Assembly (NCBI RefSeq): GCF_000284115.1
Contig: NC_017080.1
Coordinates: 1,830,001-1,862,000 of the forward strand
DNA length: 32,000 nucleotides
Source: Phycisphaera mikurensis NBRC 102666
Lineage (GTDB): Bacteria; Planctomycetota; Phycisphaerae; Phycisphaerales; Phycisphaeraceae
Reading direction: 5' to 3'
Positions 7,449 through 23,643 of the stretch are shown here, in pieces. The notes below the pieces were generated by a model that saw only the letters and a program-made list of their open reading frames with translations, was not told where the DNA came from and searched no databases. How positions within the stretch are numbered: the stretch's first letter is position 1; each line of letters begins with the position of its first letter. Position numbers and translations under genes: made by a program.

Positions 7449-8627
7449 ATGATGTCGAACCCCGCCCCCCCCCACATCGTCTGCCAGAAGCTGTCCAAGA
7501 CGTTCAAAGACTTCTGGATGCGGGACCGCGTCAAGGCGGTGGACGCGGTGGACCTGGAGGTCCGGCCCGGCGAGGTCTTCGGGCTGCTCGGGCCCAACGG
7601 CTCGGGCAAGTCGACCACCATCAAGATGATCCTCGGCCTGCTGCACCCGAGCTCCGGCCGGGTCCAGGTGCTCGGCCGCAGCCCGCGCGACACCGAGGCG
7701 AAGGAGCAGCTGGGCTACCTGCCCGAGGAGAGCTACCTCTACCGCTTCCTCTCCGCGCGGGAGACGCTGGAGTACTACGGCAAGCTGTTCGGGATCGACC
7801 GCCGCACGCGGCTCAACCGCATCGACATGCTGCTGGAGATGGTCGGCCTGGACAAGGTCCAGCGGCGGCCGATCGGCGAGTACTCCAAGGGCATGCAGCG
7901 GCGCATCGGTCTGGCCCAGGCGCTCATCAACGACCCCAAGCTGCTCGTCCTCGACGAGCCGACCACGGGCATGGACCCGATCGGCACGCGGCAGATCAAG
8001 GACCTCATCCTGCGGCTCAAGGAGAGCGGCAAGACGGTGCTGCTGTGCAGCCACCTGCTCGGCGACGTGGAGGACGTGACCGACCGCTGCGCCATCATGT
8101 TCGGCGGCCGGGTGCGGAAGGCCGGCACGATCGACGAGCTGCTCGCCCGCCAGGACGAGACGCAGATCGTGACCCACGCGTTGTCTTCGGAGGAAGAGGA
8201 GCAGGCCGTCACCGCGCTGGAGTCCCGCGGCCTCACCGACGTCTCGATCCGGCGCGGCCGCCAGAAGCTCGAGACGCTCTTCCTGGACATGGTCACCCAG
8301 GCCCAGGCCGAGGGCGTCGCCACCGCCGGCGCCGGCAACGCGGGCACCGTCGCCACCTTCCTCACCGAACGCCACGCCGACGCCGCGGACGCCAAGCCCG
8401 GCTCCTCCGCCACCGTCCTCGACGACCTCGTCCAGGACGAGCCCGAGGAGCCGGCCAAGCGGGAAGTCGTCGTCGAAGAGGTCAAGCCCCAGCCCGATGC
8501 CGCCGTCCTCTCCAACCTCGCCGAAGACAACCCGCGGACCGAGCCCGAAAAAGCCCCCGAACCTCCACGGTCCGCGGATCCCCCCAAGAAGCCCGCCGAC
8601 CGCTCCGTCCTCGACGATCTGCTTTGA
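7449..8627 (+). CDS. ABC transporter ATP-binding protein with ~110-aa acidic/Pro-rich C-terminal tail
   Basis: Walker A GPNGSGKST, Q-loop, signature-like YSKGMQRRIGLAQAL, Walker B LLVLDEPTTGMD and H-loop CSHLL. GGAGG lies 4-7 nt upstream of the ATGATG start. Confidence 0.93.
   Translation: MMSNPAPPHIVCQKLSKTFKDFWMRDRVKAVDAVDLEVRPGEVFGLLGPNGSGKSTTIKMILGLLHPSSGRVQVLGRSPRDTEAKEQLGYLPEESYLYRFLSARETLEYYGKLFGIDRRTRLNRIDMLLEMVGLDKVQRRPIGEYSKGMQRRIGLAQALINDPKLLVLDEPTTGMDPIGTRQIKDLILRLKESGKTVLLCSHLLGDVEDVTDRCAIMFGGRVRKAGTIDELLARQDETQIVTHALSSEEEEQAVTALESRGLTDVSIRRGRQKLETLFLDMVTQAQAEGVATAGAGNAGTVATFLTERHADAADAKPGSSATVLDDLVQDEPEEPAKREVVVEEVKPQPDAAVLSNLAEDNPRTEPEKAPEPPRSADPPKKPADRSVLDDLL
8532..8577. repeat. 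Copy E1 of the 46-nt element CCGCGGACCG-N26-CGGTCCGCGG, inside the 3' end of the ABC ATPase CDS
   Basis: Arms at 8532-8541 and 8568-8577 are perfect. The loop is exactly 26 nt. Confidence 0.85.
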
Positions 8628-8656
8628 AGATTGGAAGCGGTACGAGCAGCGCTTCG

Positions 8657-8885
8657 CTGAACCACAGAGAGGGAAGAGATCGAGGAGGACACGGAGACAG
8701 AGGAAGACGGGAGCGAAGGCAACTCGCACAGCGTCGACGATCCGGGGCTGCTGGCTCTCTCGACTCCGATTGTCCGGGCCCCCGGAGTCGACAGAGACGC
8801 TTGACGATCCTGAAGGTCCCTCGTTCGCGTTCCGTTCAACATCTTCTCTGTGTGCTCTCCCCCTCTGTTCTCTCTTGGTGGTTGA
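8657..8885 (+). repeat. Intercistronic imperfect GA-rich/TC-rich inverted repeat (IR-C) between the ABC ATPase and permease genes
   Basis: A GA-rich arm (~8657-8719, aaccacagagagggaagagatcgaggagg...) faces a TC-rich arm (~8818-8885, ...ctctccccctctgttctctcttggtggtt), roughly 70% complementary by eye. A central hairpin CTCTCGACTCCG (8757-8768) / CGGAGTCGAcAGAG (8783-8796) lies between them. Confidence 0.6.
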
Positions 8886-8945
8886 GCGAGGCGCCTCCCG
8901 GACGTAGCTGAGATCTTCACGAGAGACCGTCGCGAACCAACCCCC

Positions 8946-22400: not shown

Positions 22401-23596
22401 TGAAGCGCGAGCTCGGCGACCGCTACGCCGAGGTGATCGACGCGAAGGACCTCACCGGGCTCGAGAAGTTCATCGACACCGACCCCGGCCGCCGCGACCT
22501 CGCCGGGTGGATGGGCCAGCAGTTCGGGGTGGAGGTTCCCGTGGAGGAGCTCAGCGACAAGTCCGCCGAGGAGGCCCGCCGCGTCGCCACCGAGAAGGTG
22601 GAAGCCGCTTACCGGCAGCGGGAGATCGACGTTCCCTGCGAAGCGGTCGTCAACCAGTTGCTCGCCGATCTGCAGTCCGGCGAGCAGAACCAGGCCGGCC
22701 TGCGGCTGCTGGGGTACGCGAAGATCCGCCTGCGGGAGGACTGGAAGCCCGAGGACATCAACGGCAAGACCCCCCAGGACATCTTCGAGAAGCTGCGGGA
22801 CTCGACGAAGGCCTGGCTGGAGCCCGGCGGCAAGCTCGAGCAGGAGGCCAAGGAGATCGGCGTGAAGTTCGCCGACGACGAGGAGGGCCTGGCCAAGTGG
22901 GTGAAAGAGCGCCACGGGGCCCAGCTGCACCCCGAGGCGTTCGAGCAGGCGCGAAAGGACGCCAAAGAGGCGGGCGAGGAGGGGCGTTGGGCGGAGCGGA
23001 TGATCGAGCGGATCGGCCGCGACGTCTTCCGCGGCGACCTCACCCGCTTGGAGCGCTACGTCCTCCTGCAGATCATCGACCAGGCCTGGAAGGACCACCT
23101 CTACGCGATGGACTCGCTGAAGAATGCCGTGGGGATGCGGGGCTACGCCGAGAAGGACCCGCGGATCGAGTACAAGCGGGAGGGGGCGAACCTCTACAAC
23201 GAGATGCAGGGTTCGACGCGGAACCGCGTGGCGGAGCTGGTATTCCGGGCGAAGCTGCAGCCGCAGCAGATGGCCCCGCGGCGGCCGGCGGGCCCGGCGC
23301 CGGTGCAGGGCGTCTCCGCCGCCGCCGTCGCCGAGGCGCTGGGCATCGGCACCGAAACCGAGGCCCAGAAGCACGGCGGCCCGGAGCTGGAGGGCGACGA
23401 GACGCGCGTGGTGGACCCCGCCGCCGCCGCGGCGACGCCGCCGCTGCCCGAGCCCGATTCCGCGTCCGCTCAGCCCGAAGCGGAGGCGGCGTCCCCGGAC
23501 GAGAAGGCCGACGAGGGCGGCGAGCCCGGGATGACGCGGAAGCAGCGCCGGGCGAAGGAGGCCGAGGAGCGTCGCAACCGGAAGCGCGACGCCTGA
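19433..23596 (+). CDS. secA: Preprotein translocase ATPase SecA (1387 aa, expanded)
   Basis: Motifs: [22 protein letters not shown] (Walker A), [106 protein letters not shown]. Confidence 0.97.
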   Translation: [1387 protein letters not shown]

Positions 23597-23597
23597 G

Positions 23598-23643
23598 CCG
23601 CGGACCGCGGCTTGCTGAAAGCCGAAGAGGCCGCGGTCCGCGG
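23598..23643. terminator. Hairpin between convergent secA and the DUF4332 gene; copy E4 of the 46-nt CCGCGGACCG-N26-CGGTCCGCGG element
   Basis: It starts 2 nt after the secA stop. Arms are at 23598-23607 and 23634-23643, extended by CGGC/GCCG to a 14-bp stem. No U-run follows, so it is not a canonical intrinsic terminator. Confidence 0.45.

What the first reader, a model, noticed from the sequence alone, without database searches (positions are those of the whole stretch)
8532..23643. Dispersed 46-nt element CCGCGGACCG-N26-CGGTCCGCGG: at least four copies with invariant 26-nt spacing and unrelated loop sequences
Seen: copies lie at 8532-8577, 13039-13084 (one arm mismatch), 19277-19322 and 23598-23643. 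In every copy exactly 26 nt separate the two 10-mers, yet the four loops share no obvious sequence. My rough expectation for any one such 10-mer in this window (both strands, at this composition) is on the order of one occurrence, so four correctly spaced pairs are not chance.

Three copies follow a stop codon (2, 18 and 55 nt downstream) and one lies 50 nt before a stop. None is followed by a U-run. The arms are symmetric, so the element reads the same on both strands.

Related half-sites occur in other spacers: CCCCGGTCCGC at 19251, 28356 and 28378, and CGGTCCGCGG at 15037.

Inference: candidates are a REP-like 3'-end stabiliser or non-canonical terminator, a binding site for a dimeric protein with fixed half-site spacing, or a tiny mobile palindrome. 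I do not recognise it as a described element.
Basis: seen in the sequence. Interest (0 to 1): 0.7.

Follow-up and report, generated by a model that had tools for sequence, protein, structure and literature searches.

The report
Fixed-spacing split palindrome family in Phycisphaera
A 46-base motif, two inverted 10-base arms always about 26 bases apart, is scattered every 4-5 kb through Phycisphaera genomes, inside genes as well as between them; the arms and spacing are kept intact by selection, so some still-unknown factor probably reads it.

Summary
The window is Phycisphaera mikurensis. It holds five copies of CCGCGGACCG-N26-CGGTCCGCGG, not four (0.14 expected by chance). Six more lie in the next 18 kb.

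Related Phycisphaera species carry the motif at a similar density. Outgroups whose SecA is 60-67% identical carry none.

In 105 kb of clade DNA, spacing 26 gives 13 exact, 5 one-mismatch and 1 two-mismatch copies. Spacings 14-25 and 27-38 give no exact copy. One exact N27 copy turned up later. There is no tail of decayed copies.

At three orthologous sites the arms never vary (0/60 columns), while the interior does (29/78).

Seven of the 11 P. mikurensis copies lie inside genes. Where homologues align, these copies are not insertions. One arm is encoded by a conserved peptide (DPRTG, GIR, SRxP) and the partner arm sits 26 nt away in a variable stretch. Simple transposition (REP or MITE) is therefore a poor fit.

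The interior shows no base-pair covariation and no strand bias.

Best reading: a selectively maintained two-half-site recognition sequence, probably read by a symmetric protein on duplex DNA. Copies after stop codons may also act as 3' hairpins. Its evolution resembles that of DNA uptake sequences. The function is untested and the motif appears undescribed.

The parts
8532..8577 (.). Copy 1, exact arms, N26. It lies inside the C-terminal tail of an ABC-transporter ATPase gene (7449-8627, + strand), ends 50 nt before the stop, and is read in frame as PRTEPEKAPEPPRSA.
   Evidence: The orthologous copy in species B (L184:6685) has identical arms and 8/26 interior differences, several of them synonymous. 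In L185 the left arm is deleted and the right arm has decayed. In L186 the right arm is interrupted.
13039..13084 (.). Copy 2, one mismatch (right arm CGGTCCGCGA). Intergenic: it starts 18 nt after the stop of the 723-aa gene and ends about 50 nt before the next gene on the same strand.
   Evidence: Species B has no element after the orthologous gene.
17963..18008 (.). One mismatch (left arm CCGCGGACGG). It occupies the last 51 nt of a class-I glutamine amidotransferase gene on the - strand, whose stop overlaps the start of the SpoU methylase gene.
   Evidence: Species C (L127:1134) has the same copy with the same arm mismatch and 11/26 interior differences. Species B lacks it and has a shorter C-terminus.
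19277..19322 (.). Copy 4, exact arms. It lies upstream of secA (start 19433) and starts 55 nt after a small ORF.
   Evidence: It is orthologous in three species (L125:9870, L127:4870), with identical arms and 6-8/26 interior differences. It is absent at this site in the outgroups L182 and L183.
23598..23643 (.). Copy 5, exact arms extended to a 14-bp perfect stem. It starts 2 nt after the secA stop, in a convergent spacer.
   Evidence: RNA fold -44.8 kcal/mol, z = -5.9. Species B and C carry two other, different hairpin elements at this position.

Best explanation
The element is a lineage-specific, bipartite palindromic recognition sequence. It has two inverted 10-bp half-sites (CCGCGGACCG / CGGTCCGCGG) with weak extensions, 26 bp apart. 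It occurs about once per 4-5 kb in Phycisphaera genomes, in spacers and inside genes.

Shown here:
- Purifying selection, or an equivalent homogenising force, keeps the arms and the spacing intact, while the 26 bases between them drift.
- The pair of arms, not the single 10-mer, is the conserved unit.
- Many copies arose in place without changing sequence length. They were seeded by a half-site that already existed, often encoded by a conserved peptide, and the partner arm was built at the fixed distance in a variable stretch.

Inferred:
- The reader of the motif is a symmetric (dimeric or tetrameric) sequence-specific protein acting on duplex DNA, and its geometry sets the spacing.
- One good half-site gives partial binding, so mutations that improve the second half-site are favoured step by step, by selection or by a biased-transmission drive.
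- The same sequence folds into a strong hairpin when transcribed from either strand, so copies placed just after stop codons probably also serve as 3' hairpins.

The cellular role of the protein-DNA complex (chromosome organisation, recombination or uptake signal, or something else) is not determined.
For: Non-chance and fixed spacing:
- 5 copies in the window against 0.14 expected.
- In 105 kb from three clade species, gap 26 gives 13 exact, 5 one-mismatch, 1 two-mismatch and 0 three-mismatch copies. Gaps 14-25 and 27-38 give no exact copy, and counts at 4 or more mismatches equal the background.
- In unrelated high-GC genomes the same arms pair at any gap from 11 to 41; N26 accounts for 3 of 121.

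Selection on the arms:
- At three orthologous sites, 0/60 arm columns vary against 29/78 interior columns (Fisher 4e-9). This includes synonymous positions in coding copies.

The pair is the unit:
- Unpaired 10-mers are about 12 against about 4.7 expected.
- Where the left arm was deleted (L185), the right arm has two changes.

Sequence, not pairing, is constrained:
- Arm mismatches are uncompensated, and only 1 of 6 is a G-T wobble.
- Symmetric interior pairing equals the shuffle control, 68.0% against 68.0%. Only the column next to the arms covaries weakly, p = 0.02.
- RNA folding energies of sense and antisense strands do not differ: 18 against 22 copies, mean difference +1.0 +/- 0.6 kcal/mol.

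Origin in place:
- GH140 gene. Both copies align without gaps to homologues. The left arm of one encodes the near-invariant DPRTG. The right arm of the other encodes the conserved GIR motif, where the Ile codon forces its single mismatch.
- The species C orthologue has the DPRTG-encoded left arm and a 16/26-identical interior, but no right arm.
- Exonuclease III gene. The left arm encodes the conserved S/T-R-x-P motif and the interior aligns without gaps to PDB homologues.

Distribution: three Phycisphaera-level species carry it at 5-11 copies per 40-50 kb. Outgroups with SecA 67% and 60% identical have no copy and no half-site in 46 kb.
Against: - No protein partner has been identified and nothing was tested experimentally.
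- Half-site centres 36 bp apart (about 3.4 helical turns) lie on different faces of straight B-DNA. A dimer would need DNA bending or a large span.
- Copies cluster around gene 3' ends, from 77 nt inside to about 55 nt after stop codons. At the secA 3' end, three species carry three different hairpin elements. Both points suggest an RNA-level role.
- The clustering could also simply reflect where 20 fixed bases are tolerated.
- One exact N27 copy exists, so the spacing has some tolerance.
- In HisH the copy lies in a loop 14-17 residues longer than in PDB homologues, so insertion cannot be excluded for every copy.
- Only about 122 kb of clade DNA plus short metagenome contigs were surveyed, not a whole genome.
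Confidence: 0.45

Rival explanations
1. RNA-level element. When transcribed from either strand, the arms form the same 10-bp GC-rich stem. A sequence-specific RNA-binding protein or nuclease recognises that stem, and the element works as a 3'-end stabiliser, a U-tract-less terminator or an intercistronic processing site.
For: - The copies fold strongly, -20 to -45 kcal/mol.
- Many copies lie 1-25 nt after a stop codon or within the last 5-77 nt of an ORF.
- Fourteen of 17 well-annotated intergenic copies lie between co-directional genes, 3 in convergent spacers, and none in a clearly divergent spacer.
- Canonical hairpin-plus-T-run terminators are not enriched here: 10 found against 6.2 +/- 2.4 in shuffles.
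- The secA 3' end carries a different hairpin element in each of three species.
- The symmetric arms give the same stem whichever strand is transcribed.
Against: - A hairpin does not need a loop of exactly 26 nt.
- The arms are invariant rather than covarying, and their mismatches break pairs rather than giving G-U.
- Sense and antisense folding energies do not differ.
- Some copies lie in mid-gene or in a gene's 5' region (GH140, exonuclease III, ARMT1-like, S49 peptidase).
- One conserved copy ends 5 nt before a translationally coupled start codon, where a terminator or a very stable hairpin should be harmful.
Confidence: 0.25
2. Signal spread by biased transmission (molecular drive), like DNA uptake sequences. 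A DNA-uptake or recombination machinery prefers fragments carrying the motif, so motif-creating changes spread by recombination. The host function may be nil or secondary. This is a special case of the DNA-site model that differs in why the sites persist.
For: Its evolution matches that described for neisserial DUS (PMC2397512):
- stringent conservation with mainly exact and one-mismatch classes;
- new sites facing unrelated sequence in the orthologue;
- occurrence inside genes in tolerant segments and in all three frames;
- conservation across related species and absence in more distant ones, a 'dialect';
- inverted arrangement after genes.

Type IV pilus/T2SS ATPase genes and prepilin-type genes lie next to the window.
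Against: - Known uptake sequences work as single 9-12-mers, and single copies are abundant. Here unpaired 10-mers are barely above expectation.
- No bipartite 46-bp uptake signal is known.
- As far as I know, natural competence has not been reported for Planctomycetes.
- The copy density (1 per 4-5 kb) is several-fold lower than for DUS or USS.
Confidence: 0.15
3. Selfish non-autonomous mobile element (a REP/REPIN-like or minimal MITE). The 10-14-bp arms are terminal inverted repeats recognised by a transposase supplied in trans (a RAYT/IS200-like or other enzyme).
For: - It is a high-copy, dispersed palindrome.
- Arms often extend to GRAT-CCGCGGACCG.
- Presence differs between species at some orthologous sites: the amidotransferase gene's 3' end, the secA 3' end, and after the 723-aa gene.
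- Copies are carried and duplicated inside larger 320-440-bp palindromic repeats in L184 and in tandem paralogues in L181.
- The HisH copy lies in a loop 14-17 residues longer than in PDB homologues.
- Class 3 Y1 transposases flanked by REP-like structures occur in Planctomycetes (PMC6006769).
Against: - Three coding copies align with no gap the size of the element; the interior is gapless, and ExoIII shows only small indels near the right arm. One arm of each is encoded by a conserved native peptide.
- The interiors are essentially unrelated between copies.
- There is no target-site duplication.
- No GTAG or CGTC tag is present.
- There is no tail of decayed copies.
- The arms stay perfect at old orthologous sites while the interior diverges by about 30-40%. 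Selfish decay does not predict this.
- There are no hits in viral contigs.
Confidence: 0.1

Closest known systems
Neisseriaceae DUS / Pasteurellaceae USS (DNA uptake sequences), including inverted DUS pairs used as terminators
   Same: - An over-represented 10-mer on both strands.
- Stringent conservation, with mostly exact and one-mismatch copies.
- Copies inside genes arising in place in tolerant segments.
- New sites facing unrelated sequence in orthologues.
- Conserved within a clade and absent outside it.
- Inverted pairs close behind genes (PMC2397512).
   Different: - Here the unit is the pair with a fixed 26-bp gap. Single 10-mers are near chance level.
- DUS pairs are 21 nt or less apart with variable spacing, and a single DUS suffices.
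- The density is lower.
- Competence and uptake bias are untested in this phylum.
REP elements and REP dimers (REPINs, BIMEs) with RAYT transposases
   Same: - Short, GC-rich, dispersed palindromes.
- Hundreds of copies are likely per genome.
- Often located behind genes.
- Some REP dimers have spacers of similar length but different sequence (PMC3733652).
- Proposed roles as RNA 3' stabilisers, terminators and protein-binding sites.
   Different: - No GTAG or CGTC tag.
- Each arm is only 10 nt and is not itself a stem-loop.
- Most P. mikurensis copies are not extragenic (7 of 11 lie in coding sequence).
- Copies arise in place, without insertion.
- There are no decayed copies.
- Any RAYT association is unknown.
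HIP1 (highly iterated palindrome GCGATCGC) of cyanobacteria; Chi sites
   Same: Short motifs that pervade coding and non-coding DNA, arise in place, and are kept above expectation by selection or a biased repair or recombination process. This comparison rests on my own knowledge, not on a tool result.
   Different: Those are single 8-mers. This element is a 20-base bipartite site with a fixed spacer. Chi is also polar, whereas this element is symmetric.
Two-half-site operators of dimeric or tetrameric DNA-binding proteins; bipartite Type I restriction-modification recognition sites
   Same: Specific half-sites separated by a non-specific spacer of fixed length. The constraint is on sequence and spacing, not on base pairing.
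   Different: - A spacer of 26 bp is far longer than usual (typically 10 bp or less).
- The copy number is far higher than for any regulon.
- Sites lie inside genes.
- CCGCGG and CGGWCCG are neither avoided nor enriched overall.

Membership tests
REP / REPIN (RAYT-associated) | Short palindromic repeat in high copy number, dispersed around the chromosome | tested here: met
   11 copies in 50.3 kb of P. mikurensis, and 5 and 9 copies in about 40 kb of two relatives.
REP / REPIN (RAYT-associated) | Extragenic location | tested here: not met
   7 of 11 P. mikurensis copies lie inside annotated coding sequences, some in mid-gene.
REP / REPIN (RAYT-associated) | Unpaired GTAG or CGTC tetranucleotide tag at one end; each unit is itself a stem-loop | tested here: not met
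   The flanks show A at -2 / T at +2 and often GRAT, never GTAG or CGTC. A 10-nt arm cannot form a stem-loop by itself. The definition is taken from PMC3733652.
REP / REPIN (RAYT-associated) | A RAYT (Y1 transposase) gene flanked by the repeats in the same genome | not testable with these tools
No transposase gene lies in the 50 kb seen.
MITE (miniature inverted-repeat transposable element) | Terminal inverted repeats plus a target-site duplication | tested here: not met
   Inverted termini are present, but no direct duplication flanks the copies.
MITE (miniature inverted-repeat transposable element) | Copies share internal sequence and appear as insertions relative to empty sites | tested here: not met
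   Interiors are essentially unrelated between paralogous copies. The GH140 and exonuclease III copies show no gap the size of the element. The HisH copy is ambiguous.
DNA uptake sequence (DUS/USS) | Strongly over-represented short motif, on both strands, in coding and non-coding DNA, with mostly exact or one-mismatch copies, conserved within a clade | tested here: met
   Compared with PMC2397512.
DNA uptake sequence (DUS/USS) | A single copy of the motif is the functional and over-represented unit | tested here: not met
   There are about 12 unpaired exact 10-mers against about 4.7 expected in 122 kb. The pairs account for most occurrences.
DNA uptake sequence (DUS/USS) | The host is naturally competent and the motif enhances uptake | not testable with these tools
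   This needs an experiment. Only pilus/T2SS-type genes were noted nearby.
Intrinsic (Rho-independent) terminator | GC-rich hairpin with a short loop, followed by a T/U-run, downstream of a gene | tested here: not met
   The stem is present but the loop is 26 nt and no T-run follows. The consensus scan flags none of the copies as a stem with a trailing T-run; its one overlapping hit (8574-8558, - strand) is a small hairpin inside copy 1.
Any Rfam RNA family | Match to a curated covariance model | tested here: not met
   No match at the gathering thresholds. In E-value mode there are only generic long-hairpin (miRNA-precursor) noise hits.

The most novel reading that the evidence does not exclude
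A previously unknown kind of genome-wide signal: a 46-bp bipartite palindrome read by a clade-specific symmetric protein. Its sites are recruited in place, starting from half-sites that conserved peptides happen to encode. The signal could be the first DNA uptake or recombination signal in Planctomycetes, or a loading or anchoring site for a chromosome-organising factor in a lineage with unusual cell biology.
Probability: 0.3. Interest if true: 0.85.

Novelty: new variant of a known kind. Interest (0 to 1): 0.68.

Why it matters
If the reading is right, Phycisphaera genomes carry on the order of several hundred to a thousand copies of a strictly spaced two-part signal. That figure is an extrapolation from 11 copies in 50 kb to a 3.8-Mb chromosome.

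Selection keeps the signal intact even inside essential genes. This implies an unknown sequence-specific factor with a genome-wide role, in a phylum whose chromosome biology and gene-transfer mechanisms are poorly known.

The way sites arise is unusual and directly testable: the inverted partner is completed at a fixed distance from a half-site that a conserved peptide already encodes. That makes the family a clean natural system for studying how long recognition motifs evolve in place, the question debated for uptake sequences.

Practically, the motif is a sharp marker for this clade in metagenomes. It is also a source of strong hairpins that gene callers and terminator predictors ignore.

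Tried and rejected
- Variable-gap genome scan. It still served as a background control for spacing.
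- Chance or composition. Rejected by the shuffles and by the internal control with other gap lengths.
- Known RNA family. Rfam gave nothing at gathering thresholds or in E-value mode.
- Structured RNA with covarying interior pairs. An apparent inner hairpin and a stem extension were seen by eye, but the pair counts equal the shuffle control. Only the column next to the arms covaries weakly.
- Polarity of the interior. The T-rich left half and A-rich right half simply reflect a palindromic consensus. I found no orientation bias relative to genes.
- Link to the 193-nt tandem repeat. That repeat begins with C[CG]GTCCGCGG, but no partner arm lies at N26, so it is a separate element.
- Restriction-site logic. 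The arms contain the recognition sequences of SacII (CCGCGG) and RsrII (CGGWCCG), but these are neither avoided nor enriched overall.
- Integron attC sites, CRISPR repeats and recombinase core sites. I considered these from memory and dropped them: wrong motifs, variable lengths, or wrong gene context.
- Phage origin. No match in viral contigs.
- The P. mikurensis plasmid. The accessions I tried were not in the plasmid collection.
- Low-GC metagenome hits. One of the three (L135) was read and looks like an unrelated chance or eukaryote-like sequence; none of L135, L162 and L151 matches Rfam.

Full report

A search for CCGCGGACCG-N26-CGGTCCGCGG with up to three mismatches finds five copies in the window. 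Dinucleotide-preserving shuffles give 0.14.

Reading the flanks confirms the stated distances to stop codons and the absence of T-runs.

The window is about 72% G+C. It comes from Phycisphaera mikurensis: its SecA is 100% identical to the protein named for that species, and it lies on contig JACHEL010000004.1 of GCA_014207395.1.

**2. Is the spacing special?**

Fetching flanking DNA of the same contig adds 18.3 kb and six more copies. Five have N26 and one has exact arms with N27. That makes 11 copies in 50.3 kb.

Three relatives were sampled through orthologous proteins.
- Species B (SecA 84% identical; L125, L126, L184) has 5 copies.
- Species C (SecA 87% identical; L127, L181) has 9 copies.
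- Outgroups with SecA 67% and 60% identical (L182, L183) have neither a copy nor a single exact half-site in 46 kb.

In the first 105 kb of clade DNA I tabulated total arm mismatches for every gap from 14 to 38.
- Gap 26 gives 13, 5, 1 and 0 copies at 0, 1, 2 and 3 mismatches.
- Every other gap gives no exact copy and essentially background counts.
- At 4 or more mismatches, gap 26 is also at background.

So the family has no tail of decayed copies, and the spacing is nearly invariant.

As an outside control, the variable-gap scan of reference genomes returned 120 loci from unrelated high-GC bacteria. Their gaps spread evenly from 11 to 41, and N26 accounts for 3 of 121.

An exact-N26 scan of metagenomes returned 53 loci. 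About 30 come from one marine assembly with Phycisphaera-like composition. Viral contigs gave none.

**3. What is conserved?**

Three sites are orthologous between species:
- upstream of secA (three species);
- the 3' end of a glutamine amidotransferase gene (two species, sharing the same arm mismatch);
- the tail of an ABC ATPase (two species).

At these sites no arm column varies (0/60), while 29 of 78 interior columns do (Fisher 4e-9). In the ABC tail the interior differences include synonymous changes while the arms stay identical, so the constraint acts on nucleotides.

The pair is the unit. Unpaired exact 10-mers number about 12 in 122 kb against about 4.7 expected. In L185 a 24-nt deletion removed the left arm, and the remaining right arm has two changes. 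In L186 the right arm is interrupted by three bases.

Single mismatches in the arms fall at arm positions 1, 2, 8, 9 and 10, never in the central GCGGA. They are not compensated in the partner arm.

**4. Is the interior really unrelated?**

Mostly it is, but 58-77 copies reveal a weak palindromic consensus. Y-S-G-C follows the left arm and its complement precedes the right arm. Positions 8-10 are T-rich and positions 17-19 are A-rich. Outside the arms there is A at -2 and T at +2, and GRAT often precedes the left arm.

Counting a fully symmetric hairpin on the alignment gives 68.0% paired cells. That is identical to the column-shuffle control (68.0 +/- 0.9), although well above the slid registers. 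The symmetry therefore lies in column composition, not in covariation. Only the pair next to the arms covaries weakly (TA 21, CG 14, TG 10, CA 7; p = 0.02).

RNA folding energies of the sense and antisense strands do not differ (18 against 22 copies). Rfam has no match.

**5. Where do the copies sit, and how did they arise?**

Intergenic copies lie mostly between co-directional or convergent genes, often 1-25 nt after a stop codon.

However, 7 of the 11 P. mikurensis copies are inside coding sequences, in all three reading frames. Where good homologues exist, these copies are not insertions.

- *GH140 gene.* Both copies align to eleven homologues without gaps. The left arm of the C-terminal copy encodes the near-invariant D-P-R-T-G. 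The right arm of the mid-gene copy encodes the conserved G-I-R, and the Ile codon accounts for its one mismatch.
- *GH140 orthologue in species C.* It has the same DPRTG-encoded left arm and a 16/26-identical interior, but unrelated sequence where the right arm should be.
- *Exonuclease III homologue.* The left arm encodes the conserved S/T-R-x-P. The interior aligns without gaps to PDB homologues, and the right arm lies in a variable loop.
- *HisH (the N27 copy).* This is the one ambiguous case. It lies in a loop 14-17 residues longer than in solved homologues.

The recurrent pattern is that a pre-existing half-site seeds a partner arm at the fixed distance. That is not what transposition produces.

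Copies can also be duplicated passively, inside larger palindromic repeats (L184) or in tandem paralogues (L181).

Some orthologous positions differ between species. After the secA stop, P. mikurensis has this element, species B has a relative of the 193-nt repeat, and species C has an ordinary hairpin.

**6. Interpretation**

The data call for a reader that recognises the arm sequence and the distance between the arms, but not the interior sequence or its pairing.

A symmetric protein on duplex DNA explains the following most simply:
- the fixed spacing;
- the invariant, non-covarying arms;
- the independent weak extension of each half-site;
- the tolerance of mid-gene positions;
- the seeding by single half-sites, since partial occupancy would make each improving mutation visible to selection or drive.

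I give this 0.45.

An RNA hairpin with a sequence-specific binder is the main rival, at 0.25. It accounts for the clustering near stop codons and for the secA 3'-end substitutions. It does not account for the 26-nt loop, the pair-breaking mismatches, or a conserved copy 5 nt before a translationally coupled start codon.

A drive like that of uptake sequences (0.15) matches the evolutionary pattern described for neisserial DUS (PMC2397512), but not the dependence on pairs.

A REP or MITE-like mobile element (0.10) is disfavoured by the origin in place, the lack of a tag and of a target-site duplication, and the absence of decayed copies. REP dimers with equal-length, different-sequence spacers are nevertheless on record (PMC3733652).

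These readings are not mutually exclusive. As with DUS pairs and REPs, a sequence kept for one reason can also serve as a 3' hairpin.

**7. Novelty**

I found no paper or RNA family describing this motif.

It belongs to the broad kind of over-represented dispersed palindromic motifs. It differs from each known family in at least one defining feature. The combination of bipartite architecture, strict spacing, frequent location inside genes and completion in place from peptide-encoded half-sites appears to be new.

The main limits are that only about 122 kb of clade DNA was surveyed and that nothing was tested experimentally.

Noticed in passing
window 16543-17317 (four tandem units); related copies about 14760-15130: A 193-nt tandem repeat (92% matches). 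Each unit has a 25-bp inverted repeat (GGTGGCTCACCGCCTCCGGCGGTGT ... ACACCGCCGGAGGCGGTGAGCCACC) around a terminator-like hairpin, TCGGGCGCAGCCCGA followed by GCGGTTTTT. The draft assembly GCA_014207395.1 has three units where the window has four. This is either an assembly collapse or a copy-number difference. A related sequence follows the secA stop in species B (L125:14143).
   Followed up: partly
window 4706-4810, 7209-7389, 8650-8880: The spacers between genes of the Band_7/ABC operon hold purine-rich octamer runs ((AGCGAAGA)n, (AAGAGACG)4.5) followed by their complements ((CGTCTCTT)3). Together they form long imperfect inverted repeats. Relatives use (CACAGAGG)n/(CCTCTGTG)n instead. In L184, two such palindromes of 320-440 bp (84-87% identical) carry a 46-nt element at their centre.
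   Followed up: partly
window 23594-23700; L125:14131-14270; L127 around 9138-9280: Right after the secA stop, three related species carry three different hairpin-forming elements: the 46-nt element, a relative of the 193-nt repeat, and a plain GC hairpin. This suggests that a 3' hairpin is needed at this position whatever its sequence.
   Followed up: partly
window 17958-17961: The stop of the glutamine amidotransferase gene overlaps the start of the SpoU methylase gene (ATGA, - strand). Copy 3 ends 5 nt upstream of this junction. In the L127 assembly the two genes are called as one fused ORF, probably because of a frameshift.
   Followed up: no
L187:18780-18826 (P. mikurensis, about 17 kb to the right of the window): The only exact-arm copy with a 27-nt gap. 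It lies in hisH, in a loop 14-17 residues longer than in solved HisH structures.
   Followed up: partly
window 23650-23674 and 28356-28388: (GCCGTT)4 lies directly after copy 5. Two direct copies of CCGGTCCGCC, 22 nt apart, lie in the spacer between the two LptF/LptG-family permease genes. They are half-site-like but do not form an N26 pair.
   Followed up: no
window 19433-23596: SecA is 1387 aa, with large inserts and a basic C-terminal tail. Lengths of about 1340-1410 aa are shared by Phycisphaerae homologues.
   Followed up: no
L135:1488-1533 (metagenome contig, G+C 0.39): An exact N26 match in a low-GC, eukaryote-like contig with a 13-bp stem. It is probably unrelated to the Phycisphaera family. 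There is no Rfam match.
   Followed up: partly
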